Of a DNA stretch of 64,000 nt, positions 31,458 through 50,400 are shown piece after piece. The notes under the pieces were generated by a model. It did not search any database. It saw nothing but the letters and a program-made list of their open reading frames with translations, and was not told where the DNA came from. The stretch's first letter is position 1. Each line of letters begins with the position of its first letter. The stretch spans positions 372,508 to 436,507 of the forward strand of contig OZ241339.1 in assembly GCA_965200235.1 (NCBI GenBank). The letters are read 5' to 3'. Origin of the DNA: Pseudomonadales bacterium (GTDB lineage: Bacteria > Pseudomonadota > Gammaproteobacteria > Pseudomonadales > Azotimanducaceae). A program made the translations under genes and the position numbers.

Positions 31458-31704
31458 GGGCGTGTTCACACTATGCCCGCCGACGCTGTTGTCTCCTGAG
31501 CAAGAGCCGAAAAAGGTGAATCACGTGCCCCAAATGGGTCGCTCCGGCTCTTGCTCAGGCGAAAACCCTTCGGGCCGGCCCCGTTTTCCGCCAGCCTTCG
31601 TTCTCGCTCACTCATGGGGGGGGTAAGCCCCACAGCGCTCGCTCGGCCTTGTCTGGCGGAAAACGGGTCTCGGCAGCGTCGGCGGGCATAGTGTGAACAC
31701 GCCC
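31458..31704. mobile_element. MITE family A, copy 2 (inverted relative to copy 1)
   Basis: TIR GGGCGTGTTCACACTATGCCC (31458...) and its complement ending at 31704. It is about 90% identical by eye to the reverse complement of 21528-21772. TA flanks lie at 31456-31457 and 31705-31706. Confidence 0.8.
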
Positions 31705-31706
31705 TA

Positions 31707-31969
31707 GTGTCCTGTCCCATAAATAAGTGTGGATTCAGCGCGCAGGAGAAGGGCTGTGGCAAGGCGCGTTCCGCAGGCAATACTTTGCCGTATTGCCAAG
31801 GGACGCAACGCGGCCACAGCCCTTCTCCTGCGCGCCCTCCGGGAGTGGGCACAATCGCCGACGGCTGCGTTGCAGCCCTTGGCAATATGCCCGATATTCC
31901 CTGCGGACTGCGCCTTGCCGTCGGCGATTGTGCCCACTCTGAATCACACTTATTTATGGGACAGGACAC
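31707..31969. mobile_element. MITE family B, copy 2 (inverted relative to copy 1), abutting MITE A2
   Basis: Same 26-bp TIR as copy 1. It shares the CTAG at 31704-31707 with the end of MITE A2, so this is a nested or adjacent insertion. Confidence 0.8.
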
Positions 31970-32057
31970 TAGTTCAGTCGCGCTTTTGCGATCAAAGTGA
32001 CATGTCTACTGACCAATTACAAGGGCGCACGGCGCGGCATCCGCCTTGGCATGCCCT

Positions 32058-32210
32058 TGTCAGTGAGCGTCGTTCGCCTCCTCGCCTTCCGTGCTCGCCA
32101 TCGCGGCCATCAAGGACATCCGTCCCCTTTATAAAGTTAACTTTATGACAACTGCTTGGCGTCGAGCAGAAGATAGCACTTCTCGGGCAGGAACGCCGGC
32201 ATCGTCGTAG
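32058..32210 (-). pseudogene. decayed fragment of an Rpn-family gene (paralog of 30300-31316)
   Basis: 32060-32082 resembles the 3' end of the rpn-like gene (30298-30320). Further on, 32083-32205 resembles 30758-30890, including an exact 30-mer CTTGGCGTCGAGCAGAAGATAGCACTTCTC (32155-32184 = 30835-30864). An internal segment of about 440 bp is missing and there is no intact ORF. Confidence 0.55.
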
Positions 32211-32242
32211 GTGATTGTCGCTATATTTTGTAGGAAAAGCTA

Positions 32243-32271
32243 TTGACACCGCAATCATTTGCTAGTAACGT
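32243..32271 (+). promoter_or_regulatory. candidate sigma70-like promoter upstream of the giant autotransporter gene
   Basis: TTGACA (32243-32248), a 17-nt spacer, then TAACGT (32266-32271), in an AT-rich intergenic region. This is a pattern match only. Confidence 0.25.
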
Positions 32272-32330
32272 CAAATTTGCTCGCTAGCCAATTTCTCTGT
32301 GTGGACAGCACTCACCGCGCGGCACTGTGT

Positions 32331-32344
32331 GGGGGGGGGGGGGG
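32331..32344 (+). repeat. homopolymeric G14 tract 90 nt upstream of the giant autotransporter start codon
   Basis: Read directly: 14 consecutive G at 32331-32344, between the candidate promoter and ATG 32434. Confidence 0.95.
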
Positions 32345-32433
32345 CTCAAGTACAATTGCTTTGATGCGATGAAGTTGCATTTGAGTAGGAATTTTACGTT
32401 GAAAGAACATTACGAATCATAAGGTTGAACTGA

Positions 32434-35400
32434 ATGTCCCTAAAGATCATGCCGGGTCTTGTGTCTGAGTTTTTCGGAAGGTGTGCGCGACGCGCTTATC
32501 ACCGAGCGCTGACCACTGTAGCGCTGCTCATCCTGCCGCTCGCGCTTGGGCTCGCGGCAACCCCAACCCTCGCCCAAACCGCCGGCATCCAGCTTAGCCG
32601 CACCACCTTCACGCTCTACGCCGACAACGACGATATCAGCTATTCGGTGAGGCTGCGCTCGCAGCCCTCGGCGGATGTCACGGTCAGGATCCAGCTCGAT
32701 AATTTCGGCGTCTCGCGGGTGATATTCGACAACCCCAATGTCTGCGTGCCCATCCCCGGCGTCACCAACGGCCCCGCGGGCTGCACCAACGGCGTGTTCC
32801 GCTGGCTCGACCTGACGTTCACCAACAGCAACTGGAATCAGTGGCAACAAGTGGATGCGAGCCGTTTCGCCGAAACCGGTTTCTCGGAAGACGGCGACCA
32901 AAGCGCTATCTTCTCGCACACCGCCACATCCTCGGACAACAGCTACAACAACTTGGGCGGCCCGAGCTTCACGGTCACCCCCACCTCCGATAACGACAGC
33001 GAACCCACTTCGGCCTTGACGTTCCTGCCTGCGGCGGTGAGCGTCAACGAGGATTCGACCGACACCTATAGCGTGCGCCTGCGCAGCGACCCGGGCAACG
33101 GCAGCACCGTCACCATCACGCCCAACTCGGGCGGCCTCACCGCGTTCACGGTGGCGCCCACCTCGCTCACCTTCACCGGCGGCGGCTCGGGCACTTGGAG
33201 CACGCCGCAAACCGTCACCATCACGCCGGTGCCCGACGGCGATGCCGGCGACGACACCTACACCATCGCGCACAGCGGCAGCGGCGGCGGCGTCCCGTCG
33301 AACGCTGGCGGCCTGTCGCTCACCATTGTCGATACGGTCTCGCGCGGCATCACATTCAATCCCAAGATGATCGCCCTGCTCGAAGATGACAACAGCACCT
33401 ACACATTCCGCCTAGCGACGCAGCCGAGCGGCAACGTCACCGTGGCGGGCGAGATCGGCGATGTGCGCGTTGCCATCGTGTGCGACCCAAATGCCCCATC
33501 CGGCTCAGATGGCCGATGCCTGACCGGTAGCAGCGACGTCACCCGCACCAACGCGGAGCGGTTCAGCTACACCTTCACCACCACCACTTGGAATCAGCCC
33601 GCGACGGTGGAACTCGTGTCGCAGAGTTCGACTAGCCGAACGTCCACCACCATCTCGCACACGGCCACGGGCGGCGGCTATAACAGCGTTTCGGCATCGC
33701 TGCCGGTAACGTTCGAGCCCCCGACCGAGCCGCGGGTGGTGCTTGAAGTGTCGTCGCAGTCGGCTACCGAAGGCAGCCCGGTCAACGTCACTGTCAACTT
33801 GGAGGGCGGCCCCACGCTCAGTGCCAACACCGTCTTCCCGATTACGATCACCAACGGCAGCGCGGAATCCGCCGACTACACCGCGATCAGCAGCGTCACC
33901 GTGAACGCGGGCGCGCGCAGCGGCAGCGCATCGATTGCGATCACCGACGACAACGTGTTCGAGGCCGCCGAAACCTTCACCGTCGCGCTCGGCACGCTGC
34001 CAAGCGGCGTGCGGAAGTCGCGCCCGGACGAGCCGACATCGTATGAAATCACCATCGCGACAAGTGACAGGCCGGAACTGCGCCTTGAGGCGCCGACTAC
34101 GGTGAACGCGGGCGGACGTCAGCCCGCCCGCCAATTTGAATTCAAGGTGATTGCGAGCAATCCTGCGGACAAGGATATCACCGTGCCGCTCGATGTCACC
34201 ATTACAGTGCCCGTCTCGATAGGGGGGGACGCTGACGGCAACTTGTTAGCTGCCACTGATGGCGGCAGAAAGTTGCTTACGCTTTCTGAAGGCGATACGG
34301 AGGTGAGTTATTCATTATGGGCTTCTGATATCGAAGCCGACAGTTCGCGGGGCAGGGCCGAGGCCGAGATCGTCACTGGCGCCGATTACACCGTCAGCAG
34401 CACCGCAGGCAGCGCCACGGTCACTGTGCAGAATGACTATACAACGTTTATTGGTTTGACGGCGCAAGCTGGCAATATCAGCGAGACCAGCGGCAGCAAG
34501 ACGATCACCATTGCCTTGGAACGCGGCTTGGTGACCCCCGAGGCGCTCGCCGTGCCGCTCGAAATCACCGGCACGGCGGTGCTCGGCACCGACTACACGC
34601 TGAGCGCGCCCCCCACCTTGCCGAGGGGTGTGGCCTACAGCAACCTCGGCAGCACCGACCTCACCAATAGCCCGCCCACGGTCACCTTCACCGGCGGCGC
34701 GACGCTGAGCGCCACCACCGCCACGCTCATCGTATCAGCCACGTCCGATACGCTCGACGAAGCGAATGAAACCATCGGCATCGCGATGGACTCGGCGATC
34801 AATAGCGTCAATGCCGGCACGAACCTTGACGGTGGTGTCCAATTCGAAAGAGATGAGTCGTCGGTAAGTTTCAGCATCACCGACGACGACGACACTCCCG
34901 AAGTCAGCATCACCGGCCCCAACGCCGCGCTCACCGAAGGCGCCACCGCCGAATACACCATCAGCGTTAGCGGCGAGGCGCAGGCCGAATTGTCGATCGG
35001 CCTGACGGTCAGCCAAGTGGGCGCCTTCGTCGATGCCGACGACCTCGGCGCGCAAACCCTGACGCTCGCCTCCGGCGTCACCAGCCTCAATTTTGAGGTC
35101 GTAACGCTCGCCGACTCCGCCGACGAGCGCGACGGCTCGCTCACCGTCGCGCTCAACACAGGCACCGGCTACACCGTCAGTTCCGGCGCGGGCTCGGCGA
35201 CCGTCGCCGTCAACGACAACGACGCCACCTTCGTCGAGATGTCCATCGGCGGGTCGAGTGATGTGGACGAGGCGAGCGGCAGCAAAACCATCACCATCGA
35301 GATTAGCCGCGGCCTCGTGGCGGGCGAAGTGCTCGCCCTGCCGCTTGCGGTTGGCGGCACCGCCACGCTCGGCACCGACTATACCCTCGCCGCGCCCACC

Positions 35401-38400
35401 AGCCTGCCCACCGGCGTCACTTACACCACCCTCGGCAGCGCGCCCACGGTCACTTTCACCGGCGCCGCCACGCCAACGGCTTCGGAAGCCACGCTTATTT
35501 TCACGGCCACTTCGGACAACCTCGACGAGGGCGACTCGGAATCGTTCACGATCAACCTGCCGACCTTGAACGCGAATTCCGGCACCAATCTCACCGGCGG
35601 TGCCGCCGGCAGCGACAGCGTCGCACTCGATATCACCGATGACGATCCGCCGCCGGCGCTGTCGGTGAGCGTATCGCCGACCACCGCCATCACCGAAGGC
35701 ACCAGCGTCACTTACACCGTCAGCGCGCCCAATCCGTCCGCTGAAGAACTCACCATCCCCTACACCGTCTCGCAATCGACCGGCGCCGCCTTCCTCGCCG
35801 CCGACAGCGTCGGCGCGGATGAGCTGACCTTGCCGGCGGGCGACACCAGCGTCACCTACACCCTCGCCACCGCCTCCGACCAGAACGACGAGATCGACGG
35901 CAGCTTCACCTTCGCGCTGTCAACGCCGGCGAACGACGCCGGCTACACGCTCGTCTCCGGCGAGACCTCGGTCACGACCGATGTGCGCGACGACGACCCC
36001 ACCACCGTCACGCTCAACGTGCCCGCCGGCGCCATCGCCGAGAACGCTGGCAGCAAAACCCTCACCGTCGTCCTCGGCCGGGGACTGGTGGCGGGCGAGC
36101 GGCTGACCGTGGACGTGCGCTTCGCCGGCACCGCCACCTATACCACCGACTACACGGTGACGCGCCCCTCCGGCTCGATTCCCGCCGGCATCACCTACAA
36201 CAGCTTCGGCGCCACCACGCGCGTATTCGTGGTCGGCCCCTCCGCCAATTCGTTCGGCCTCGTCGTCACCGCCGTGCAGGACAACTTGAACGAAGGCGCC
36301 TCGGAATCGATCATCGCCTCGCTCGCGCCGCTGAACGCGAGTTCCGGCACCGGCCTTAGCGGCGGCGCCAGCGCCAGCGGCGGCGCCACCTTCGCGATCA
36401 CCGACGACGACAGCGGCGGCGGCGCCACCATCGCCGCGGACGCGGCGATGGTGGCCGAAGGTACTGCGGCGAGCTTCACCGTCACCCTCGCCAGCGCCTC
36501 GGTCACCGCCACCACCGTCAACTACACCGTGTCGCAAACCGGCACGGTGCTCGCGGCCAACGCGGCCGGCAATAAATCCGTGGTGGTGGCCGCTGGCGAA
36601 ACCGAAGCCACCTTCACCGTCGGCACCGCCTCGGACACCACCGACGAAGTGAGCGGCTCGGTGGATGTCACGATCACCAGCGGCACCGGCTATACGGTGG
36701 GCGCCACCAGCACGGCTTCGGTCGAGGTCACCGACGACGACCCCACCCTCGTCGCCATCGCCGCCGCCAGCGACAATAGCGCGCTTGAAGGCAGCACCAC
36801 CGACACGGCCATGTTCACCGTCACCCTTGGGCGCGGGCTGGTCGATGGCGAGAGCCTTGAAGTGCCGCTCGCCGTTACCGGCATCGCCGCAGCCGAGTAT
36901 TCGCTTGCCGTCGCCGCCGCCACCGGTGTTGCCCTGTCGGGCAACACGCTCACCTTCACCGGCCCGGAGAGCGGCGCCAGCGCCAGGACCGCCACCATCA
37001 CCTTCACTGCGGCCGACGACGAAAGCGCCACGGACGCCGCCAACGAAGCGGTTGCCATCACCATCCCCGCGTCCTCGGCCAGCGGCACGCCGCGCATGAC
37101 CGCGAGCGGCCTCGACGGCGGCGCCTCCGGTTCGGGCACGGCGGGCATCACCATCGTCGATAAGGGCATTGCCGGCGGCGCGGTGAGCGTCAGCGCCGGC
37201 GCCGCCGTCACCGAAGGCGAGTCGGCCACCTTCACCCTCGCCATCAGCACCGCCTCGACCAATCCGGTCACGGTCAATGTGACCGTGGCCGAAACCGGCA
37301 TGGTGCTCGCGGCTAACGAAGACGGGGCGCGCACGGTGGTCATCCCGGCGGGCGAAACCGAAGCCACCTTCACCGTCGGCACCGCCTCGGATGCCATCGA
37401 CGAGCAGAGCGGCTCGGTCGATGTGACGGTCAACACCGGCACCGGCTACAGCGTGGGCACCAACCAGGCATCGGTGGCGGTGGCGGACGACGACCCCACC
37501 GTCGTCACCATCGCCGCAACCGATGGCACCGCCATCGAAGGCGACAGCGATGCCACCGCCGAGTTCACCGTCACCCTCTCGCGCAGGCTCGTTGCGGGCG
37601 AAAGCCTTGTGGTGCCGATCGGCGTGGCCGGCCTCGCCGCCCGCTCCGAATACACCCTCGCGCTTGCCGACGCCGAAGATATCGCGCTCGCCGACAATGA
37701 TCTCACCTTCACCGGCGTTGACGCGGACAGCGATACCACCGCTACCATCACTCTCACCGCGAACGCCGACAGCGTCGCCTCGGATGCCGCCAACGAAGCG
37801 GTGACCGTCACCATCCCGGCGTCTTCGGCCAGCGGCACGCCGCGCATGACCGCGAGCGGCCTCGCCGGCGGCGCCAGCGGCGCGGGCCGGGCGCGCATCA
37901 CCATCACCGACGCGGGCATCACCGCCGGCGCGGTCACCATCGCCCGCAGCGCTGCATCCGTCACCGAAGGCGGCACGGCCACCTTCACGCTCACCTCCGC
38001 CAACGCCGCCAGCAAGGCCACCACGGTCAACGTCACGATTGCCCAGACCGGCGCGGTGGTCGCGTCGAGTAATCTCGGTGCCCGCGAAGTGGTGATTCCG
38101 GCCAATGCGTCGAGCGTGAGCTTCACCGTGGCCACCACTGCGGATGCCATCGACGAGCCCAGTGGCACGGTCACGGCCACGGTCGCCGCCGGCACCGGCT
38201 ATACGGTGGGCGCCACCAGCACGGTTTCGGTCGAGGTCACCGATAACGACCCGACCTCGGTCACCCTCGCCGCCACCGACACCGCCGCCGCCGAGGGCGA
38301 CAGCAGCGACACCGCGGCCTTCACCGTCACCCTCGGCCGCGCGCTCGAAAGCGGCGAAACCCTGGTGGTGCCCATCGCCGTCGCCGGTTTCGCCAGCAAC

Positions 38401-41400
38401 GCAGAGTACTCGCTCGCGCTCACCGCCGGCACCGGCCTCAGCCTCACCGGCAACACGCTCACCTTCACCGGCATGGCAAGCGCCGCGCGCATCGCCACCA
38501 TCACGCTGTCCGCGCTGGCCGAAACCGATACCAGCGATGCCGACAACGAAGCGGTGACCGTCACCATCCCGGCGTCCTCGACCGCGGGCACCTCGCGCAT
38601 GACTGCCACTGGGCTCGACGGCGGCGCCGTCGGCACCGGCAGCGCGCGCATCGCCATCACCGATGCCGGCGTCGCCGCCACTCCGGGCGTGACCTTGAGC
38701 GGCGGCACGCTCGTTGTGAAAGAAAACGAAAGCGCCAGCTACACCATCGTGCTCGATACGGATCCGGGCCAGGGCAGCACCGTCACGGTCACGCCGGCAT
38801 CGGCCAATACCGACCTGTCGTTCAGTCCCCTCAGCGTCATGTTCACCGGCGGCGCCAGCGGCACTTGGGACGTGCCGATGGCCGTGACCGTGACCGCGGG
38901 CGCCGATGGCGATGTCGCGAACGACAGCGCTACCATCACCCATAGCGTCAGCGGCTACACTGGCGTGGCGACGGTCGGCGATATCACGGTCAGCGTCACC
39001 GATGCCATGCACGGCTGGGTGGTCGAACCCGAGGAGTTGACGGTGGCAGTCGGCGACACGGCCACCTACACCGTGCGCCTGCTGAGCGAGCCATCACGCC
39101 AAGTGCGCTTTACCGCTTCGAGCGACTCTAATGGAACTGCCCGCGTGGCGCCGACCGATCGTCAAAATATCGCGCCAGGTAACTGGCAAACAGGGCGTCA
39201 GATGACTGTCAACCCTCGCAGGGCGGGCACAGCCATTATTACGCATGCCAACAACACTGGCAGCCAGGAAACGAGCTACAGATCAGAACCTATTCCATCG
39301 GTGAAGGTGCTCGTCACAGCGAGCGGCGCGCCGATGGTGAGCATTGCGGCCGACGAGGCGAGCTTTACTGAAGACGGTTCGGCCACCTTCACCGTCTCCT
39401 CAGACGAGGCTGCGGGAAGCGGCGGCTTGCTCGTGGACCTCACAGCCGTCCAGGAAGGCCGCTATGCTGACAGCGGTCTGCCGACAGATGTCTGGATTTT
39501 AGAAGATCAACGAGCGGCAACGGTCACCGTTGACCTTGAAGACGACAGCGCCGATGAGTCTGACGGTAGCTTGACGCTGACCCTGTCGAGCAGCGAGGAC
39601 TATCAAGTGAGCTCAAGCGGATCGGCCACTACGATCCTCGTTGACAACGATGCCACTTTGGTCACCCTCGCCCGCACAAGCGGCGCCGATGCCAACATCG
39701 ACGAAACAGCGGGCGAATCCTCGCTCACGGTCATGCTCGGCCGCGCCTTGGTGGCGGGCGAGGTGCTCAGCGTGCCGCTCGCCGTCACCGGCACCGCCAC
39801 CTTGAATACCGACTACACGCTCGCGGCGCCGGCCAGGCGGCCGGCGGGCGTCACCTACGCGGGCCTCAATACGGCTTCGCCGAGCATCACCTTCACCGGC
39901 GGCGCATCGAGTTCGGCGTCCGCATCGGTGCGCGTGCTGGCGAGCTCGGACGCGGCGGCGGAAAGCGATGAAACCATCAACATCGCGCTTGGCACGCTGG
40001 ACGCAAACTCCGGCACCAACTTGGATGGCGGCGCGAGCGGTTCGGGTTCGGCGGCCTTCACCATCGCTGATGACGACGGCACCGGGCCGGTCATCAGCGT
40101 GACGGCGGGCGCCGCGGTCACCGAAGGCGCCAACGCCAGCTTCACCGTCACCGCCGCCCCGGCGCCGTCGGCGAACCTTACCGTCAACCTCAGCGTCGGC
40201 GCCAGCGGCGATTTCGTGGCGGGCACCAACACCGGCGGCAAGACCGTCACCATCCCCACCGGCGGCAGCGCCACCTACACGGTGGCCACGGTGGGTGACG
40301 GCGTTGACGAGCCGAACGGCAGCGTCACGCTCACCGCGGTGGCCGGCCAAGGCTACTCGGTCGGCAATTCCGGCAGTGGCACTGTCACGGTCAACGACAA
40401 CGACAACACCAGCGTGACCTTAAGCGCGCCCGCCAGCAATATCGGCGAGACCGGCGGCAGCAAGGCGCTTACCGTCACGCTTGGCCGGGCGCTCGTCAGC
40501 GGCGAGACGCTGACGGTGCCGGTCAATTTCGCCGGCGCCGCCACCCGCGCCACCTTCGGTACTGACTACACAATCGCCTCGACCGCCGCGACCGGCGTCG
40601 CCTACAGCGCGCTCACCAGCAGCCCGATCACGATCACCTTCACCGGCCGCGCCAGCGCCTCGCGCACCGCCACGCTGACCTTGAGCGCTACAGGCGACAC
40701 CACCGAGGAACCCAACGAGAATATCGCCGTCAGCCTCGGCGCGCCCACCGCGAACGCCGCGCTCGGCGGCGCCACCGGCTCGGGCACGGTGAGCTTCTCG
40801 ATCACCGACGACGACGGCAGCCTGCCGTCGGTGACCATCGCCAGGAGCGGCGCTTCGGTCACCGAGGGCGCCAATGCCACCTTCACCGTCACCGCGAGCG
40901 CCGCGCCGGATGCGAACCTCACGGTGAATCTCAATGTCGCGCGCGTCGGCAATTTCGTCACCAGCACCAATGCCGGCAGCAAGACCGTCACCATCAATTC
41001 CGGGTCAACCACGGCCACGTTCAACGTGGCGACTGCAGGCGATACCGCCGACGAGGCTGACGGCAGCGTCACGGTCAGCGTCGCCACCGGCAGCGGCTAC
41101 ACGGTGGGCTCGACAAGCAGCGCGACGGTGGATATCAACGATAACGACGCCACGACGGTCACGCTGTCCGCGCCCGCCAGCAATATCGGCGAGACCGGCG
41201 GCAGCAAGCAGATCACCGTCACATTGGGCCGGGCGCTCGTCTCAGGCGAGACGCTGACGGTGCCGGTCAATTTCGCCGGCGCCAACCCCCAAGCCACCTT
41301 CGGCACCGACTACACGGTGGCCGCGCCCAGCACCGTGCCGGGCGGGGTCGGCTATAGCGCCACCACCAGCAGCCCCATCACCATCACCTTCACCGGCGGC

Positions 41401-44400
41401 GCGGGCGCCTCGCGCGCCGCTACGCTCACTTTGAGCGCGCGCGGCGACACCAGCGAGGAAAGCGACGAGAATATCGCGCTCAGCCTCGGCACGCTTGGCG
41501 CGGCCAGCCTTTCCGGCGGCGCGACCGGCTCGGGCGCGCCCAGCTTCCAGATCATCGACGACGACGCCAGCCTGCCGGTGGTGAGCGTCGTCCAGGGCAC
41601 CTCGCCGGTCACCGAAGGCACGCCGGCCAGCTTCACCGTCAGCGTCGCCCCAACGCAGAGCGCGGCGCTTACCGTGAACGTCAATATCTCGCGCGTCGGC
41701 AACTTTATTGCGAGCGGGGACGCCGGCATCGATACTGTTACCATTCCCACCGCCGGCACCGTCACCTATTCCGTGGATACGACCGCCGACACCACGGACG
41801 AGGCCAACGGCAGCGTCACGCTCACCGCCACCGCCGGGCGTGGCTACACCGTGTCCGGCAGCGCGGGCAGCGCAACAGTGGCGGTCAACGATAACGACAA
41901 CACCGGCGTCACCTTAAGCGCGCGCGCCGGCAATATCGGCGAGACCGGCGGCACGAAGGAACTCACCGTCACCCTCGGCCGCCCGCTCGCCGCCGGCGAG
42001 ACGCTCGCCGTGCCGCTCACCTTTGGCGGCACCGCCACCTTCGGCAGCGATTACACGCTGTCCTCGCCCACTCCGCGGCCGAGCGGCGTGGGCTATAGCA
42101 ACCTCAGCAGCACGAACCTCACCGATAATCCGCCCACCATCACCTTCACCGGCGGAGCCGCCGTCTCGCGCACCGCCACCTTGACGGTAAGCGCCTCCAA
42201 CAACGCGGTCGAGGAGACGGACGAGACCGTCACCGTGGCCTTGGGCACGCTCGCGGCGAACACCGCGCTCGGCGCCGCCACCGGTTCGGGCACCGCGAGC
42301 TTCTCGATCATCGACGACGACGACCCGTCGCTGCCGACGGTGAACGTCGCCGCCGGCGCGGCCGTTGCCGAAGGCGGCAACGCCACCTTCACATTCAGCG
42401 TCAGCCCGGCGACGCATCCCGCGCTCACCGTGCGCTACACGGTCACCCAGAACGGCAGCTTCCTCACCAGCGGCGCGCTCGGTGCCGGCAAAACGGTGTC
42501 GCTCGCCGAGGACGCGGGCTCGGCCACCGTCAGCATCCCCACCGTCAACGACAGCAACGACGAGGCGGCCGGCGAGGTGACCGTCACCCTCACGGCGCAG
42601 GCGGCCTACCAGGTCGGCACCGGCAGCGATTCGGTGGATGTCACTGACAACGACCCGACGTCGGTCACGATTACAGCGCCTTCCGGCAATATCGCCGAGG
42701 ATGGCGGCACTAAGGTCATCACCGTCACGCTCGGCCGCGCGCTGGTGACCGGTGAATCCGCGTCGGTGGTGCTCGACCCCGGCGGCGCCGCCACCCTCGG
42801 CACCGACTACACGCTGCTCGCGCCGACCACGGTGCCGGCGGGCGTCGCCTATACCACGCTCGGCACCGCCCCCACGATCACCTTCACCGGCGGCACCGCG
42901 CCAGCGAGCGCCACCGTGACGCTGCGCGCCGACGACGACATTCGCGATGAAGGCGACGCCGAGACGGTGACGGTGGGCATCAACGGCACCGCCTCCTCCG
43001 CCACCAATCTTGGCGGCGGCTTGAGCGGCTCGGGCAGCGCGAGCTTCTCGATCACCGACGACGACGGCACGCCGGTGGTGAGCATTGCCGCCGGTGCAAC
43101 TGTGACCGAAGCGAGCGCCCTCGCGACATTCCCGATCACTATCAGTCCTGCACCTCAGGAAAATCTAAGCCTCATATTTTTTGTGTCCCAAATGGGCGAC
43201 TTTTCGGAATACCCTGGTGAACTCGGCCTTGTCGACTTTAGCAATGACTATGGTCCGTTGCCTCTCTTGATAGGGACGAGCACGACCGAGATCACATGGG
43301 ATTTACTGGACGACAGAACCGACGAGCCGTCCGGCTCCATTACCATCGAGCTCCGCCCAGGCAACGGCTACCGCGTGTCCTCGGCCGAAGGCGCATCAAG
43401 CGCCACCGTGAGGGTGCTCGATAACGACTCTTCAACCGTCACGCTCGCCGTCGCTGCCGGCGATCTCACCGAGCTGGTCAGCCCGGCCACTGACAAGCTG
43501 ACCATCTCGGTCAACCGTGCGCTCGTTGACGGCGAAGAGATCGCCGTGCCGATCGAATTCGCCGGCGGCGCCATCGGCACCCAGCTGAGCCTGTCCATGG
43601 CCACCACCACCGGCGCCTCGCTCAACGCCACCACCGGCGTGCTGACCTTCAGCAGCGGCGGCCAGAGCGCCACCGTGCGCATCGCGCCGCTGCTCGACCC
43701 GGACGAGATCGACAACACCATCACCGTCAGCCTCGGCACCTTGGGCCTCACCAACATCGACGGCGGCGCCAGCGCCACCGGCAGCGGCAGCTTCAATATT
43801 ATCGACGCCGGCCCGCAGCCGGCGGTCGATCTGTCCGCCACCACAGTGGCCTTGACCGAAGGCGGCGCCGCCGGCACCTACCGCGTCAAGCTGCACACCG
43901 ACCCGGGCGCGAGCGTCACCGTCACGCCGTCCTCGGCCGATGACACGCGCGTGACCGTCTCCGGCGCGCTCACCTTCACCGGCGGCGCCACCGGCACCTG
44001 GGACGACTGGCAAACCGTCACCCTCACGCCGCTGCCCGACGGCGACACCGCGAGCGAGGAAGTGGTCATTTCCCACGCCGTGACTGGCTACGGCAGCGTC
44101 ATCTCCGGCCCGGACCTGACCGTCTCGCTCGTTGATATCGGCGCCGGCGTGACGGTCACGCCCACCTCACTCACCGTCCAAGAAGGCTCGAGCGCCAATT
44201 ACACGGTGGTGCTCAACAGCCGTCCGAGCCAGAATGTCGTGATCACGCCGGCCAGCAGCGCGGTCGCCAACGCCACCGTCGGCGGTGCCGTCACCATCAT
44301 GCCCGCCACTTGGGATCAGCCGCGCACGGTGCAGGTCACCGGCGTCGATCGCGGCAGCGCCAATATCAACCACGCAGTCACGTCCGCGGACAGCAGCTAC

Positions 44401-47400
44401 TCCGGCGCGTCCGCATCGCCGGTGGCGGTCACCGTCGGCGCCAGTCCACGGGTGCGCGTCTCGACAACGAGCGTCACCGCCAGCGAGCGCGGCGCGGACG
44501 GCGTCTACATGGTCAGCCTCAACACCGACCCGAGCGGCACCGCGCGCGTCACTGCCACCCGATCGAGCGACGAGATTGCCGTGAACGGCGGCGCGTCCGC
44601 GACCCTCACCTTCAACAGCAGCAACTGGCAGACGCCGCAGCGGATCACGGTGCGCGCCCAGCCGGACTACGACAAGGACAACGACACCGCGGCCATCACC
44701 CATGCGGTGACGGGCTACGGCAGCGTCTCTAGCGGGCCGCAAGTCAGTGTCTCCACGGTCGATATCGGCGCCACGATGATCTATTTGGAGCGCTCGGCCG
44801 ATCCGATCAATGATCTCAACCCCCTTGCCATCCCTGATCGCCGCGTTACCAGCTTGACCCTCAACGAGGGCGAGAGCAAGGATTTTTACGCCGTGATCAC
44901 GACTCGGGCGCGCGTCATATTCGGCTCTGTAACGTTCCCAAGCGACTTGGCAGTGAGCGGCGGCATCGGAGGCAATTTCCGCGCATCGGGCCAGACCGGT
45001 TCACGTGCCAACCTTTCAATCAGCGCAACGAGCAGCGGCAGCACTTCCGGCCATGTATGCGCCTACGTGATCGACCCGCATCCGGATTACCCGCAGCAAA
45101 CAGCGCCGACAAGCCTCAGCCAGTGCAATGCCGCATACACCTTGCCTGTCACGGTGAATTTGGGCGACCGCGTCAATATCGAACCCACCACGCTGGATAT
45201 CGAAGAAGGCGGCAGCGCGCAAACCTACGAAGTGTGGCTCAACACCGATCCTTCCGGCACCGCCACCGTCACGCCAGTCTCGCCCGATATCGGCGCGGTG
45301 ACCGTGTCCGGCGCGCTCACCTTCAACTCTAGAAATTTCGGCGACCGCCAGCAGGTGACCGTCACCCCGGTCGATGACGACGATCGCGACGATGAGACCG
45401 TCGCCATCACCCACACCGTGGCGGACTATTCCGGCAGCGCCAGCGGCGTGACCGTGAACGTGGACGACGACGACGACCTGCCCGATATCAGCATTGTCGC
45501 GACGGCTGCGAGCGTGGTCGAAGGCGGCACCGCCAGCTTCACGATTTCGGCGGATCCGGCCCCCGAGGCCAGTCTCACCGTCAATCTGACGGTGCAGCAA
45601 ACCGGCGACTACGGCATCGCCGCCGGCAGCCTCGGTTCGCAGACCGTCACCATCGCGGCCACCGAGACGAGCGCGAGCTTCACCGCGGCCACTGCGGGCG
45701 ACGATGTAGACGAAACCGCAGGCTCGCTCGCCGCGACCATCGCCACCGGCAGCGGCTACACGGTGGCGGCGAGCCCCGCGAATACCGCGACCGTCGAGCT
45801 GCGCGACAACGACGCCACCTCCGTGACCTTGGCCGTGCCCGCCGGCAACATCGCCGAAGCCGACGGCACCAAGACCATCACCGTCACCTTGGGACGGGCG
45901 CTTGTCAGCCCCGAAGTCTTGCCAGTGCCCTTGAGCTTCCTCGGCAGCGCCACGCGTGGCACCGACTACGCATTAACCGCGCCGAACCCGGTGCCGGCCG
46001 GCCTCGCGTTCAATTTGTCGGGTGCAACGCCCAGCATCACCTTCACCGGCCCGTCGCCGGAAGCAGCCACCTTCACGCTCGCCTCCACCGACGATGATGC
46101 CGATGAGGGCTTGAGCGAGTCCGTGTCCGTCGCGCTCGGCACGCTCAACGCGAGTTCCGGCACGAACTTACATGGCGGCGCCGTCGGCAGCGGCAGCGGC
46201 GCCTTCGCCATTGAGGACGACGAAACCACTGTGGTTCCGGAGGTCAGCATCGCCGCAGGCGCGGCCGCCACCGAAGGCGGCAACGCCACTTTCACGGTGA
46301 GCGTTTCCCCGGCGATCAGCGCCGCGTTGACGGTGGCGCTCAACGTCACCCAGGACGGCACGTTCGTCGCCGCCGGCAATCTCGGCGCGGACGAGGTGAT
46401 CGTGCCGGCGGGCGAGGCGAGCGCGGTGTTCAGCGTCGCCACCGTCAACGACGACCTTGACACAGCCGACGGCTCGGTGACCGTCACCATCACCGACGAT
46501 GCGGCCTACACGATTTCCTCGACCGCTGCCGCCGCCACAGCCGACGTGACCGACAACGACGCCACCATCGTCACCCTGGCGAACGACGTGCCGGTCACGC
46601 AGGAGGCGAGCGGCACCCCGGCCAGATTCACCGTCTCGCTCAGCCGCGCCCTCGTGACCGGCGAAGCCATCCGCGCCCCGCTCAGCTATGCGGGCGGACC
46701 GAACGGCGCGTTCACGCTGAGCGGCAACCCCAACGGCATCGACTTCACCAGCAACGTCCTCACCTTCACCGGCGGCACGGGCGCGGCCACCACCGCCACC
46801 ATCCAATTCTTCTCCAGCCGCGACCAGGACAACGAAGACGAGAACTACACCGTCAGCTTCGGCACGGTGGTTGGGAGAGGGCTTGGCGGCGGCGCGTCCG
46901 GCGCCGGCACCGCCGCGATCAGCGTCCTCGACGATTTGCGCGCCACCCAGACCATCAGCGTCGAAGCGACGAGCGCGTCCATCGATGAAGGCGGCACGGC
47001 CACCTTCACGGTTACGACCAGCCGCCCTTATGGGTCGCAGCTCGGGGGCGAGAACCGCACGGTGAGAGTGGGTCTGCGCGGCACCGGTGCCGCCACGCTG
47101 CCAGCCGAGTTCCGCTCCTTGACCTTCCCGATCGGCACGGCCTCGCTGCCGCTGTCCGTCGCCACGCAAACGGACGACGTGGACCGGCCCACCGGTGCGG
47201 TGATCGCAACCGTGCAGAGCGGTTCGGACTACGTCGTCAGCTCCAGTGCGGGCACGGCCGAAGTGCCCGTGAACGACGACGACCCGACCACCTTCACGGT
47301 TGGGCTGCTCAACGCAACCATCCAATTGAACGAGGAGGATTCGGTCAACGAAAGGACCACAGCGGGCAACGTCCTGCGATTCAGCTTCTCGCGCGGCTTG

Positions 47401-50400
47401 GTTGCCGGCGAAACCGTCAACATCCCGCTGGTCTTCACGGGCGGCACCCCGGGCGAGGATTTCTTCATCCGCACCACGCTCGCCGCTGACGGCACGCCGC
47501 CGAGTTGGCTGAGCATATCCTCGGCGGGCGTGGTGACCATCAGCGGCGGCGAAACCGCCGGGTTCGACACCTATCTTGTCGTGCTTGATGATGACGACGG
47601 CATCGACGAGCGGATCACCCTCTCGTCGATTGGCACCATCACCCATACCGGACTCGGCGGCAGCGCCACCGGCACCATCCGCGCGCCCGCCACGTTCAGC
47701 ATTATCGACAACGACCAGCCGAGCGGCCCGGCGGTGAGCATCGAATCCGACGGCGACGTCACCGAAGGCACCGCTGCGGCCTTCACCCTGAGCGTCTCGC
47801 CGGCGCCGACCGCGGAGCTCGAGGTGTCGCTGACCGTGGCCGAGGAAGGCGGCTTCGTGGACTCCAGCAATACCGGCGCGCAGACCGTCACCATTGCGGC
47901 GGACGCCACTTCCGCGGCCTTCACCGTTGCCACCTTGGGCGACACCGCCGACGAGCCGGACGGCTCGGTGACCGTCACCGTCGCCTCCGGCACCGGCTAC
48001 GAAGTCGACTCGCCGAGTTCGGCCGAAGCGGCAATTGCCGACGACGACGCCACGACCGTAACCTTGGCTGTGACCGACGCGATCGCTACCGAAGGCGATT
48101 CGAGCGCCACCGGCGCGTTCACCGTCACGCTTGGCCGCGCGCTCGTCTCCGGCGAAAGCCTGACCGCGCCGCTCGGCCTGTCCGGCGCCACCGCGGGCGA
48201 CGAGTTCAGGCTTGCGCTCACCGCCGCCAGCGGCATCGGCTTCAACGCTGCGACCAGCACGCTCACCTTCACCGGCGGCACGGGCGCGTCCACGGTCGCC
48301 ACCCTGACCCTCACCGCCGAGGACGACGACAACTTCGCCGACGAGACCTTGACGTTAAGCCTCGGCGCGCTGTCTTCGTCGGGCTTGAGCGGCGGCGTGG
48401 AAGGCACCGGCAGCGGCGATATCGAAATCACCGATGCCGGCGCGCCCGAACCCGTCATCAGCGTCACCGCCGGTGCCGGCATCACCGAAGGCGGCACGGC
48501 GACGTTCACCGTCACCGCGGCACCTGCGCCGACCGCCGAGCTTGAGGTGGCGCTTGCCGTCTCGCAACAAGGCAGCTACGTCGCTTCCGGCAACCTCGGC
48601 AGCGCCAGCGTCACCTTCGCGGCGAACGACGGCAGCGAGACCTTCACCGTCGCCACCCAAGGCGACAACGTTGACGAGCCAAATGGCGCGGTGGTGGTGA
48701 CCGTGGTGAACGGTACCGGCTACGGCCCGTCCTCGACGAGCGGCTCGGCGCAAGTGGCCGTGGCCGACGACGAAGCCACGAGCGTGACTTTGGCCGTGAC
48801 CGACACGACTGCCACCGAGGGCGATTCGAGCGCCACCGCCGCGTTCACCGTGACGCTTGGCCGCGCGCTCGCCGCAGGCGAGGGCATCTCGGTGCCGCTC
48901 ACCTTCACCGGCGGCGATCCCGGCGACGACTTTAGCATGGCGCTCGCCACTGCAACCGGCATCAGCTTCACCGCTGCCACGAGCACGCTCACCTTTACTG
49001 GCAGCGCGAGCGCGGACAGCGTCGCAAATCTCACTTTCACCGCCTTGGAAGACGACAACTTCGTCAACGACACGGTGGGCGTGGCGTTGGGCGCGGTGAC
49101 CGTGACCAACCTCGGCGGCGGCGTCAACGCCTCCGGCAGCGGTAACATCACCGTCACCGACGCCGGTGTGCCGGATCCGGTCATCAGCATCGCTGGCAGC
49201 GCGGGCGTCACCGAAGGCGGCACGGCGACATTCACGGTGACGGCCGCGCCAGTGCAGCCGACTGATACTTCCGTGTCGGTGAATGTGACGCAGGAAGGCA
49301 GCTACGTCGCTGCGGACGATCTCGGCGCCGATACCGTGACAATTCCTGCGAACGCCGCCTCTGCGGACTTCACCGTTGCGACCGTCGGCGACAGCGCCGA
49401 CGAGCCGAACGGCTCGGTGACCGTGACCGTGACCTCCGGCAGCGACTACGAAGTGTCTTCGACCGCAGGCTCGGACGAGGTGGATGTCGCCGACGACGAT
49501 GCGACCACCGTCGTCTTGGCGGTGACCGATGCGACTGCCACCGAAGGCGATTCGACCGCGACCGCCGCGTTCACCGTGACGCTTGGCCGCGCGCTCGCCA
49601 CCGGCGAAGGCTTGACCGTCGCGCTCGGCTTCGCGGGCGGCGCGAGCGGTGATGATTTCACCCTTGCGCTCACTACGGCGACCGGCATCTCCTTTGCGGC
49701 GGCGACCAACACCTTGACCTTCTCGGGCGGTGCGGGCGCTTCGAGCACTGCGACATTGACTTTCAGCGCGGCGAACGATGCCGATACCACCGACGAGACC
49801 GTCACCGTCAGCCTTGGCACCCTAACGCCGTCCGCGCTCGGCGGCGGCGTGATCGGCAGCCGCACCGGCGACGGCGAAATCGTCATCACCGATGCGGGCG
49901 TCGTCGGCGCGGTGATTGTGGCTGGTTCGCCTGTGGCTGTGACCGAAGGCGGCGCAACGGGCAGCTACACGGTCGTGCTCGCGACCGACCCGGGCGCGAT
50001 CGTGACGGTGACGCCAAGTTCTGGCGATACAAGCGCGGTGACGGTATCGGGTGCGCTCACCTTCAACACCGGTAACTGGAGCACGCCGCAGGCCGTGACC
50101 GTGACGCCGGTGAGTGATGGCGACGTGACCAACGAGAGCGTCAGCATCAGCCACGCCGTTTCGGGCTATGCGGGCGTGACGAGTGCGCCGACGGCGACCG
50201 TCACCGTGACTGATCTCGGGCGCGGCGTGGTGGTCGAACCGACTGCGATCGACATCGACCAAGGCGACAGCGAAACCTACAGCGTCGTGCTTGTGAGCGC
50301 GCCGGCGGTCGGCACGACGGTCAGCGTTGTCGCCGCGAGCGGCGATGAAGAGGTCGCGACCGTGAGCGGAACGCCTCTCTTCACGACAGCCAACTGGAGT

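What the first reader, a model, noticed from the sequence alone, without database searches (positions are those of the whole stretch)
32243..32433. G14 homopolymer between a candidate promoter and the giant autotransporter start: possible phase-variation switch
Seen in sequence:
- An uninterrupted run of 14 G at 32331-32344, 90 nt upstream of ATG 32434, in an otherwise AT-rich leader.
- A TTGACA-17-TAACGT match lies about 60 nt further upstream.

Established: poly-G/poly-C tracts in promoters or leaders of surface adhesins and autotransporters drive slipped-strand phase variation in Neisseria, Haemophilus, Bordetella and others.

Inference: tract-length changes could modulate transcription, or G-quadruplex/leader structure, of a 24-kb gene whose expression must be very costly.
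Basis: partly seen in the sequence, partly recalled or inferred. Interest (0 to 1): 0.6.

Follow-up and report, generated by a model that had tools for sequence, protein, structure and literature searches.

The report
Length-variable poly-G tract before giant adhesin
A run of 14 G's just upstream of a 24-kb surface-protein gene in an uncultured sponge-symbiont bacterium is real, and it varies from 10 to 14 G's between sponge samples whose flanking DNA is otherwise the same; this is the signature of the slippage-prone expression switches known from pathogens, but its effect on expression has not been tested.

Summary
The G14 run (32331-32344) is real. It ends 89 nt before the ATG of a 7,942-aa Calx-beta autotransporter gene and is far beyond chance: a first-order Markov model expects 1.3e-4 such runs per window.

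Assembled contigs from 12 other sponge samples carry the same locus. The run is resolved in nine: G10, G11 (two samples), G12 (two), G13 (two), G14 and G-T-G12. One further contig carries at least 14 G's and stops there. Lengths differ on three identical local SNP backgrounds. No other isolated or out-of-frame indel was seen in 20 kb, and the giant ORF stays open. The tract is therefore a hypermutable repeat, not an artefact.

That would put the tract in the transcribed leader, as in Moraxella uspA1. A Bordetella fim-like position in the core promoter is not excluded.

Four of seven related giant genes that I fetched also carry C11-C20 runs within 100 nt of their start codons.

No RNA data or raw reads were available, so any effect on expression is inferred.

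Verdict: a probable slipped-strand expression switch, a new member of a known kind. I found no description of one in sponge symbionts.

The parts
32243..32248 (+). Candidate -35 hexamer TTGACA (promoter P1)
   Evidence: Read directly. Together with TAACGT it gives 13.5 bits in my PWM heuristic, above the best of 300 shuffles. It is unchanged in all sample haplotypes.
32266..32271 (+). Candidate -10 hexamer TAACGT (promoter P1, 17-nt spacer). The predicted transcription start is near 32278-32280.
   Evidence: It matches only 3 of 6 consensus positions, so the strict scan does not list it. The transcription start is not mapped.
32331..32344 (+). G14 homopolymer, the hypermutable tract
   Evidence: Other samples carry G10, G11, G12, G13, G14 or G-T-G12. 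Markov expectation is 1.3e-4 per window.
32347..32358 (+). CAAGTACAATTG motif, which contains the alternative -10-like hexamer TACAAT (32351-32356; promoter P2)
   Evidence: It occurs once in the window against 0.02 expected. A similar motif follows the C11 tract of L002. P2 candidates score 7-8 bits, which is chance level.
32369..32422 (+). Possible 17-codon upstream ORF (MKLHLSRNFTLKEHYES) that ends on the ribosome-binding site of the giant gene
   Evidence: Six-frame reading. There is no evidence that it is translated. It is listed only because one rival reading uses it.
32422..32425 (+). Shine-Dalgarno-like AAGG, 8 nt before the ATG
   Evidence: Read directly.
32434..56262 (+). Giant surface-protein gene of 7,942 aa. 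It has a long Sec-type signal peptide (cleavage around TLA/QT), Calx-beta-type repeats and a C-terminal autotransporter barrel that ends in Phe.
   Evidence: A 99%-identical protein from another assembly has the same N-terminus. The ORF stays open in four other samples.
32138..32205 (.). Multi-copy segment that marks the upstream limit of the gene's own regulatory region.
   Evidence: Logan word depth is 8-10 times that of the unique flank in four runs. The neighbouring intact copy at 30300-31316 matches PF04754.

Best explanation
The G14 run is a slipped-strand, hypermutable simple-sequence repeat in the 5' regulatory region of a giant Calx-beta autotransporter gene. The host is an uncultured sponge-associated gammaproteobacterium; its closest named relatives are Pseudomonadales MAGs.

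**Proposed mechanism**
- Replication slippage adds or removes G's.
- The symbiont population therefore holds, and different sponge individuals become dominated by, different tract lengths.
- The most likely layout is that transcription starts at the sigma-70-like promoter TTGACA-17-TAACGT, near 32279. The tract then lies at about +52 to +65 of a roughly 155-nt leader.
- Tract length then sets the amount of full-length mRNA or protein in a graded way, as the G(n) tract upstream of Moraxella catarrhalis uspA1 does.
- The result would be cells that differ heritably but reversibly in how much of a very costly, exposed surface fibre they display.

**Shown:** the tract exists; it is beyond chance; its length is polymorphic on identical local backgrounds; the gene is intact.

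**Inferred:** the transcription start, any effect of length on expression, and reversibility within a lineage.

**Odds:** I put a functional switch of any mode at about 0.65, and this leader mode specifically at about 0.4.
For: **Length variation between samples**
- Contigs of public runs give G13 in X1, X2 and X3, and G14 in X4.
- They give G12 in X9.
- They give G10 in X11, G-T-G12 in X12, and G11 in X13 and X15.
- They give G12 in X10.

**Recurrent change on the same background**
- Haplotype A: the window has G14 and X1-X3 have G13, with 0 SNPs in 745 nt.
- Haplotype B: X4 has G14, X10 has G12 and X12 has G-T-G12; all share 32256A.
- Haplotype C: X9 has G12 and X11 has G10; they share three SNPs.

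**A local hotspot**
- In 20 kb laid on four runs, the only other indels are two lone 3-nt ones and two clusters inside divergent patches, whose net length change is a multiple of three.
- A G7 inside the gene shows no length change in the three of those four runs that cover it.

**Possible within-sample heterogeneity**
- In three low-depth samples the contigs break at the tract.
- Where a tract-bearing unitig was recovered, its depth is only a third to a half of the flank: 2.8 against 7.5, 3.5 against 9.2 and 5.4 against 9.75.

**Chance and promoter**
- Chance expectation for such a run is 1.3e-4 per window.
- Promoter P1 scores above all 300 shuffles.

**Recurrence in relatives**
- The only G/C runs of 10 or more in the window and in seven fetched loci of related giant genes all lie within 100 nt of a giant gene's start.
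- They are the window's G14 (-90), a C11 in L002 (-55), a C20 in L003 (-98) and a C14 in each of L004 and L006 (+67).

**Literature**
- uspA1 G(n) lengths change mRNA 21-fold (PMC7302503).
- Bordetella fim3 is ON at C14 and OFF at C13 (PMC10172299).
Against: - There is no transcript data. No RNA run holds the locus, so neither the transcription start nor any length effect is known.
- Only assembled contigs could be read, not raw reads, so heterogeneity within one sample is suggested but not shown.
- Any uninterrupted G run of 10 or more would be length-variable whether or not it has a function.
- All five lengths from G10 to G14 occur as sample consensus. A neutral tract would give the same picture.
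- The predicted leader fold is no more stable than shuffled sequence (z = +0.95).
- In the model, the pairing of the tract with codons 2-3 is the same for G10, G12 and G14.
- The -10 hexamer of P1 is weak (3 of 6), and the tool's strict scan finds no promoter at all.
- The haplotypes differ by at most 1.6%, so persistence of the tract across them is weak evidence for selection.
Confidence: 0.4

Rival explanations
1. Neutral mutational hotspot. The run is hypermutable simply because it is a long homopolymer. Its length has no consequence for expression, and it persists only because the strains diverged recently.
For: - All lengths from G10 to G14 are found as sample consensus, with no obvious preferred length.
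- There are no expression data.
- The leader fold is unremarkable.
- The haplotypes differ by 1.6% or less.
- In X12 the run is interrupted by a G>T change. This is how such tracts decay.
Against: - G/C runs of 8 or more are depleted about three-fold in the window. The genome therefore does not tolerate such runs freely.
- A run of 14 or more is expected 0.007 times per 3.36 Mb.
- Four of seven fetched loci of related giant genes carry C11-C20 runs within 100 nt of the start and none elsewhere.
- The location before a surface-protein gene is the classical one.
Confidence: 0.3
2. Core-promoter switch of the Bordetella fim or Neisseria opc/porA type. The real promoter would use TACAAT (32351-32356) as its -10 element. 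The tract would fill the spacer and -35 region, so its length would set the spacing to an upstream weak -35 (CTGTGT) or to an activator site. G10-G12 would give 16-18-nt spacers and G13-G14 would give 19-20.
For: - TACAAT lies 6 nt after the tract.
- It sits inside the 12-nt motif CAAGTACAATTG, which is expected 0.02 times per window.
- A near-copy of that motif follows the C11 tract of L002. There it would leave a 21-nt leader with a good ribosome-binding site.
- In Bordetella Pfim2, Pfim3 and PfimX the -35 region is itself CCCCCC, and it is co-centric with the BvgA site (PMC7250471).
- The range of tract lengths is the same as in Pfim3, C11-C16 (PMC10172299).
Against: - P2 candidates score only 7-8 bits, below the median best score of shuffled sequence (8.6).
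- No recognisable -35 element or activator site was found.
- Whole-collection scans for tract plus motif gave only five hits, about what I estimate chance would give. The one hit I inspected (L090) is not next to a giant gene.
Confidence: 0.2
3. Upstream-ORF frame switch. A short ORF would start before the tract (for example at GTG 32301) and read through it as poly-Gly. Depending on tract length modulo 3, it would stop at 32360-32362, at 32370-32372, or at TAA 32420-32422 on the ribosome-binding site of the giant gene. That would change translational coupling.
For: - The six-frame reading with G9-G16 shows the three alternative stops.
- One frame (G9, G12, G15) ends on the Shine-Dalgarno region.
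- An earlier scan note on another genome (e1-1115153) proposed the same idea. That is a lead only.
Against: - There is no ATG and no ribosome-binding site before the tract.
- The candidate starts are a GTG or TTG with no Shine-Dalgarno sequence.
- There is no conservation evidence.
Confidence: 0.05
4. Sequencing or assembly artefact. The homopolymer, or its length variation, would be produced by sequencing chemistry.
For: - The window (G14) and the runs X1-X3 from the same host label (G13) differ by one G. That could be a homopolymer consensus error.
- One X13 contig carries 9 extra G's after the tract. It looks like a two-colour-chemistry poly-G artefact.
Against: - Contigs at depths from 3.5x to 266x, from four studies and ten samples, span the tract. 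Their lengths differ by up to 4 nt.
- Duplicate runs of one sample agree: X1 and X2 both give G13.
- A G7 in the same gene shows no length change in the three of four runs that cover it.
Confidence: 0.02

Closest known systems
Moraxella catarrhalis uspA1 G(n) tract (PMC7302503 and the Lafontaine et al. work cited there)
   Same: Both are uninterrupted poly-G tracts of about 8-13 nt upstream of the ORF of an autotransporter-superfamily adhesin. In uspA1, length changes alter the mRNA level in a graded way, with a 21-fold difference between G10 and G12. If promoter P1 is real, the window's tract has the same position, between the promoter and the start codon.
   Different: The window's host is an uncultured sponge symbiont, not a human pathogen. 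The gene is a 7,942-aa Calx-beta type Va-like autotransporter, not a trimeric one. No effect on mRNA has been measured here, and the transcription start is not mapped.
Bordetella pertussis fim2/fim3/fimX promoter C-stretch (PMC1891110, PMC10172299, PMC7250471)
   Same: Both are G/C homopolymers of 11-16 nt before a surface-structure gene, and several lengths coexist in natural populations. One nucleotide decides between ON and OFF in fim3 (C14 against C13). The -35 region there is the homopolymer itself. The window's tract ends 6 nt before a TACAAT hexamer.
   Different: No activator site or fim-box equivalent was found. The TACAAT promoter is not above chance, and the best promoter candidate lies 59 nt upstream of the tract. 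I found no BvgA-type regulation to point to.
Neisseria meningitidis porA (poly-G) and opc (poly-C) promoter tracts
   Same: Both are homopolymers in the promoter of an outer-membrane protein gene. In Neisseria, length sets high, intermediate or no expression.
   Different: In porA and opc the tract lies between or next to defined -35 and -10 elements. That geometry is only one unproven option here.
Intragenic tracts of phase-variable autotransporters (Bordetella bapC, PMC1891110; Neisseria NalP/MspA, own knowledge)
   Same: The gene class is the same. The related loci L004 and L006 carry a C14 inside the annotated 5' coding region, as these genes do.
   Different: In the window the tract is non-coding. 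Stops occur in all frames between it and the ATG, so a frameshift ON/OFF mechanism does not apply.

Membership tests
Simple-sequence-repeat contingency locus (slipped-strand phase variation) | An uninterrupted repeat long enough to be hypermutable (a G/C run of about 8-9 or more) | tested here: met
   G14 at 32331-32344. Markov expectation is 1.3e-4 per window.
Simple-sequence-repeat contingency locus (slipped-strand phase variation) | Tract length differs between otherwise near-identical strains | tested here: met
   G10, G11, G12, G13, G14 and G-T-G12 occur across samples, with different lengths on three shared local haplotypes. No other isolated or out-of-frame indel occurs in 20 kb.
Simple-sequence-repeat contingency locus (slipped-strand phase variation) | Several lengths coexist within one population or culture, with reversible high-frequency switching | tested here: inconclusive
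   Only assembled contigs were available. Contigs break at the tract in samples S4, S5 and S22. Where recovered (S4, S5), tract-bearing unitigs have a third to a half of the flank depth. That fits heterogeneity, but it also fits poor reads across poly-G.
Simple-sequence-repeat contingency locus (slipped-strand phase variation) | The tract sits where its length can affect expression (promoter, leader or ORF) of a surface or host-interaction gene | tested here: met
   The tract ends 89 nt before the ATG of a giant autotransporter and starts 59 nt after the best promoter candidate.
Simple-sequence-repeat contingency locus (slipped-strand phase variation) | Expression depends on tract length | not testable with these tools
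   No RNA run holds the locus. This needs reporter fusions or paired DNA/RNA data.
uspA1-type leader tract | The tract lies downstream of the transcription start and upstream of the start codon | tested here: inconclusive
   This is predicted only. P1 (TTGACA-17-TAACGT) scores 13.5 bits, above 300 shuffles, but the strict scan finds no promoter and the transcription start is not mapped.
Bordetella fim-type promoter C-stretch | The tract forms the -35/spacer region between an activator site and a functional -10 element | tested here: inconclusive
   TACAAT lies 6 nt after the tract, but promoter scores of 7-8 bits are at chance level. No activator site was identified. The recurrence of the motif in L002 is suggestive only.
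Type Va (classical) autotransporter | C-terminal 12-strand beta-barrel translocator domain | tested here: met
   TIGR01414 scores 21.6 bits against a cut-off of 16. PF03797 scores 25.9 bits, just under its cut-off of 26. The protein ends in Phe. A relative, P0013, is named an autotransporter barrel protein by NCBI. There is no PDB sequence match, and no structure was predicted.
Type Va (classical) autotransporter | N-terminal Sec signal peptide and a passenger domain | tested here: met
   The N-terminus has a basic region, a hydrophobic core and TLA/QT (read by eye, no predictor was run). The passenger consists of Calx-beta-type repeats rather than the usual beta-helix, so the protein is an atypical member.

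The most novel reading that the evidence does not exclude
Long G/C homopolymers at the 5' end may be a general, independently maintained control module of the giant Calx-beta, LRR and cadherin-like surface-fibre genes of sponge symbionts across several bacterial phyla. The tracts would sit sometimes in the leader or promoter (the window, L002, L003) and sometimes inside the first codons (L004, L006).

If so, sponge microbiomes, usually seen as stable mutualists, would run pathogen-style contingency loci on their most exposed and most expensive proteins. Possible reasons are hedging against host phagocytosis or recognition, or against phages that use the fibres as receptors. From my own knowledge, Calx-beta is also the building block of the sponge's own aggregation factors.
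Probability: 0.35. Interest if true: 0.65.

Novelty: new member of a known kind. Interest (0 to 1): 0.45.

Why it matters
Slipped-strand expression switches are textbook biology for mucosal pathogens, but they have hardly been considered for beneficial, uncultivable symbionts. One search for 'phase variation' together with 'sponge symbionts' found a single, unrelated paper. Two broader searches listed no sponge paper among their top hits.

Here the switch-like repeat can be seen varying in nature, across sponge samples from four sequencing studies. It sits in front of a 24-kb gene that must be among the most costly in a 3.4-Mb genome.

If tract length does tune expression, symbiont populations inside one sponge would be mosaics of fibre-rich and fibre-poor cells. 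That bears on how sponges tell symbionts from food, on phage pressure in sponge tissue, and on how metagenome-assembled genomes, which collapse such variation, should be read. It also offers a simple, PCR-sized marker for following symbiont population dynamics.

Tried and rejected
I therefore could not count homopolymers genome-wide, search for mismatch-repair genes, or look at paralogues in the same genome.
- The look-up of encoding contigs refuses proteins longer than 5,000 aa. The 99%-identical allele P0007 and the window's own contig could not be fetched.
- The look-up through the neighbouring Rpn-like protein found no record.

**Searches that found nothing useful**
- Exact-pattern scans for the tract flanks in genome contigs and metagenome contigs found nothing. 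The species is not in those collections. Its nearest relatives share 79% identity in the H+-pyrophosphatase and are Pseudomonadales MAGs.
- The N-terminal protein query in genome contigs returned only an internal-repeat match (L001).
- No RNA runs hold the locus. No runs are kept as raw reads.
- Rfam gave nothing for the leader. It returned only chance-level miRNA-model hits on the MITE hairpins.

**Ideas tested and not supported**
- The leader fold is not special (z = +0.95). The predicted pairing of the tract with codons 2-3 is independent of tract length.
- G-quadruplex formation appears only in the energy model and was not tested further.
- A coding role for the tract is rejected, because stops occur in every frame.
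- A shared tract-plus-CAAGTA..CAATTG module is inconclusive. Collection scans gave five hits, about what I estimate chance would give, and L090 is not beside a giant gene.
- PWM promoter scans of L002 and L003 gave nothing usable.

Full report
**1. Observation**

The window has an uninterrupted G14 at 32331-32344. It is the only homopolymer of 9 or more bases in 64 kb. The next longest are a G8 at 31616 and a C8 at 18927.

The tract ends 89 nt before ATG 32434, the start of an ORF running to 56262 (7,942 aa). A TGA lies in frame directly before that ATG. All three forward frames contain stops between the tract and the ATG, whatever the tract length. The tract is therefore non-coding.

The gene's own upstream region (32211-32433) is 45% G+C against 63% for the window.

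TTGACA is at 32243-32248, followed by a 17-nt spacer and TAACGT at 32266-32271.

G/C runs are depleted in this window: 3 runs of 8 or more are observed against 8.4 expected under an independent-base model. A run of 14 or more is expected 1.3e-4 times per window under a first-order Markov model, or 0.007 times in a 3.36-Mb genome.

**2. The gene and the organism**

- The protein has a long Sec-type signal peptide, read by eye.
- It has Calx-beta-type repeats (PF03160).
- Its C-terminus ends in Phe. It passes NCBI's autotransporter-barrel model (TIGR01414, 21.6 bits, cut-off 16) and falls just short of Pfam's (PF03797, 25.9 bits, cut-off 26).
- No solved structure matches by sequence.

'Giant autotransporter' is therefore reasonable, although the passenger domain is atypical.

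Relatives found through the N-terminal 450 residues are other proteins of 4,000-8,000 aa. Several sources name them as coming from sponge symbionts: Thioalkalivibrio sp. HK1, AqS1, AqS3 and a Nitrospira 'SB' bin. A 99%-identical allele, P0007, has the same N-terminus, so a second gene call agrees on the start.

The public runs that hold the locus are labelled 'sponge metagenome' or carry one coded host label. The flanking H+-pyrophosphatase is at most 79% identical to anything in the species-representative collection. The best matches are Pseudomonadales MAGs and a sponge-derived gammaproteobacterial bin.

Upstream of 32210 lie MITEs and a decayed Rpn-like fragment. Earlier notes e1-3005450 and e1-3005452 describe these. 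My own checks agree: inverted repeats, a PF04754 match on 30300-31316 and high multi-copy depth.

**3. Is the tract variable?**

Only Logan contigs were available, not raw reads. Each contig gives roughly the majority sequence of one run.

| Source | Sample | Tract |
|---|---|---|
| window | own assembly | G14 |
| X1, X2 | S1 | G13 |
| X3 | S2 | G13 |
| X4 | S3 | G14 |
| X9 | S7 | G12 |
| X11 | S8 | G10 |
| X12 | S9 | G-T-G12 (32332 G>T) |
| X13, X15 | S10, S12 | G11 |
| X10 | S4 | G12 |
| X6 | S5 | at least G14; the contig ends in the tract |

The flanks define four local haplotypes, and three of them carry more than one length:
- Haplotype A, with no SNP: G14 and G13.
- Haplotype B, with 32256A: G14, G12 and G-T-G12.
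- Haplotype C, with three SNPs: G12 and G10.

Length has therefore changed repeatedly on the same background.

As a control I laid 20 kb of the gene on four runs. The only other indels were two lone 3-nt insertions and two clusters inside divergent patches, whose net length change is a multiple of three. A G7 at 34222 showed no length change in the three runs that cover it. The ORF thus stays open while the tract changes.

Differences of up to 4 nt, at depths from 3.5x to 266x and in four studies, cannot be homopolymer read error. The single-G difference between the window and X1-X3 could be. One X13 contig with nine extra G's looks like a poly-G chemistry artefact.

In three low-depth samples (S4, S5, S22) the contigs break at the tract. 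Where a tract-bearing unitig was recovered (S4, S5), its depth is a third to a half of the flank. That would fit mixed lengths within a sample, but it is equally expected from poor reads across poly-G. I count it as suggestive only.

**4. Where does the tract sit in the transcription unit?**

No RNA run holds the locus, so this is inference.

The tool's strict consensus scan finds no promoter at all. I built a simple position-weight heuristic from E. coli sigma-70 frequencies recalled from my own knowledge. It ranks TTGACA-17-TAACGT first at 13.5 bits. That is above the best site in each of 300 shuffles of the region (95th percentile 12.0, maximum 13.4). This promoter would start transcription near 32279 and put the tract at about +52 to +65 of a roughly 155-nt leader.

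A second option is TACAAT at 32351-32356, 6 nt after the tract, with the tract filling the spacer and -35 region.
- On the heuristic it scores only 7-8 bits, which is chance level.
- It does lie within a 12-nt motif, CAAGTACAATTG, that is expected 0.02 times per window.
- A near-copy of the motif follows the C11 tract of the related locus L002.
- Whole-collection scans for 'tract plus motif' returned five hits, roughly what I estimate chance would give. The one hit in a Pseudomonadales MAG is not beside a giant gene.
- I leave this option open at about 0.2.

Other checks on the leader gave nothing special:
- Rfam finds nothing there.
- Its fold is not more stable than shuffles (z = +0.95).
- The predicted pairing of the tract's 3' G's with UCCCU at codons 2-3 is the same for G10, G12 and G14.
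- With quadruplex energies, a two-tetrad G4 becomes possible at G11 and a three-tetrad G4 at G15. That is a model, not evidence.

**5. Related loci**

Giant relatives under 5,000 aa could be fetched together with their flanks.

| Locus | Protein | G/C runs of 9 or more |
|---|---|---|
| L002 | P0016, Calx-beta | C11 ending 55 nt before the start, non-coding |
| L003 | P0037, with P0005 in tandem behind it | C20 ending 98 nt before the start, non-coding |
| L004, L006 | two paralogues in one 1.85-Mb genome | C14 at +67 to +80 of the annotated ORF, read as PPPPP, about 45 codons before the signal peptide and inside a 5' module conserved between the two |
| L005 | P0027 | none upstream; two G9 runs inside the ORF |
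| L007 | P0045 | none; it begins inside an upstream giant gene |
| L008 | P0040 | none in the 246 nt available |

Across the window and these seven loci, every G/C run of 10 or more lies within 100 nt of a giant gene's start, and none lies elsewhere. The chance of that placement is below 1e-8, even when the two paralogues are counted once.

Earlier notes of this scan report the same pattern in other presumed sponge-symbiont genomes. I treat those notes as leads. My own loci give an independent partial check.

**6. Comparison with known systems**

- The general device, a slipped-strand repeat before or inside a surface-protein gene, is well established.
- In Moraxella catarrhalis, a G(n) tract upstream of the uspA1 ORF changes mRNA 21-fold between G10 and G12 (PMC7302503).
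- In Bordetella, the fim2, fim3 and fimX promoters contain C-stretches of 11-16. C14 is ON and C13 is OFF for fim3, and one culture holds several lengths (PMC10172299).
- In those Bordetella promoters the -35 region is CCCCCC itself (PMC7250471).
- A survey of Bordetella homopolymers rates tracts 81-150 nt upstream of a start codon as moderately likely to overlap a promoter. It also lists tracts in the autotransporter gene bapC (PMC1891110).

The window's tract meets the sequence-level criteria of a contingency locus: length, strain-to-strain variability and position. The functional criteria, length-dependent expression and reversibility, could not be tested.

**7. Verdict**

Hypermutability is shown and regulation is inferred.
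- I put about 0.65 on a functional expression switch of some mode: 0.4 for the leader or uspA1-like mode, 0.2 for the core-promoter or fim-like mode, and 0.05 for upstream-ORF coupling.
- I put 0.3 on a neutral hotspot and 0.02 on an artefact.
- This is a new member of a known kind. My literature searches turned up no description of such switches in sponge symbionts.
- The broader reading, that 5' homopolymers are a general feature of giant surface-fibre genes across sponge symbionts, is the part worth following up.

Noticed in passing
L004:1486-1580 and L006:1486-1580: Two ~4,880-aa paralogues in one 1.85-Mb circular contig share a conserved 5' module. It runs TTGATA(C/T)AAT, 9 nt, ATG, 63 nt, C14, with the signal peptide about 45 codons after the tract (residues 72-97). 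The C14 lies inside the annotated ORF and reads as PPPPP. It is a candidate translational ON/OFF switch, unlike the non-coding tract of the window.
   Followed up: partly
L002:1436-1446 and L003:1383-1402: A C11 ends 55 nt before, and a C20 ends 98 nt before, the start codons of two other giant surface-protein genes (P0016; P0037 with P0005 in tandem). Both tracts are non-coding, and each is the only G/C run of 9 or more in its 17-kb locus.
   Followed up: partly
L005:4819-4827 and L005:8530-8538: Two G9 runs lie inside the ORF of a 4,394-aa fn3-rich giant protein that has no upstream tract.
   Followed up: no
window 32347-32358; L002:1461-1474: The 12-nt motif CAAGTACAATTG (0.02 expected per window) follows the G14 by 2 nt. 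CAAGTAAACAATTG follows the C11 of L002 by 14 nt. Collection-wide scans for tract plus motif gave only about the number of hits I estimate chance would give, so the meaning is unclear.
   Followed up: partly
window 31704-31972: This MITE, bounded by 28-nt perfect inverted repeats, reaches a Logan word depth of 58,677 against about 211 for the unique flank in run X1. That is some 280 copies' worth in that sponge holobiont.
   Followed up: no
window 34038-34161, 43114-43317, 37539, 48220: The giant gene is mosaic between samples. In X4 there are dense SNP and indel patches whose net length change is a multiple of three. In X13 and X12 there are lone 3-nt insertions. The allele P0007, 99% identical over the N-terminal 450 residues, is 106 aa shorter. 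This looks like recombination or repeat-number variation, that is, antigenic-type variation on top of the tract.
   Followed up: partly
window 32434-56262: The passenger domain is built of Calx-beta-type repeats. From my own knowledge, the same domain makes up the sponge's own aggregation factors; a paper on that gene family, PMC5400394, came up. Mimicry of, or binding to, host adhesion molecules is a possible role. I did not test it.
   Followed up: no
window 32411 (run X8) and 32405-32417 (runs X14, X16): In three samples the contigs stop 17-29 nt before the ATG, not at the tract. This probably reflects mixed haplotypes (SNPs at 32385 and 32439) in those samples.
   Followed up: no
window 31616-31623 and 18927-18934: The next-longest G/C runs are a G8 inside a MITE and a C8 near the 3' end of the JAB-E1-like gene. 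I did not check their variability.
   Followed up: no
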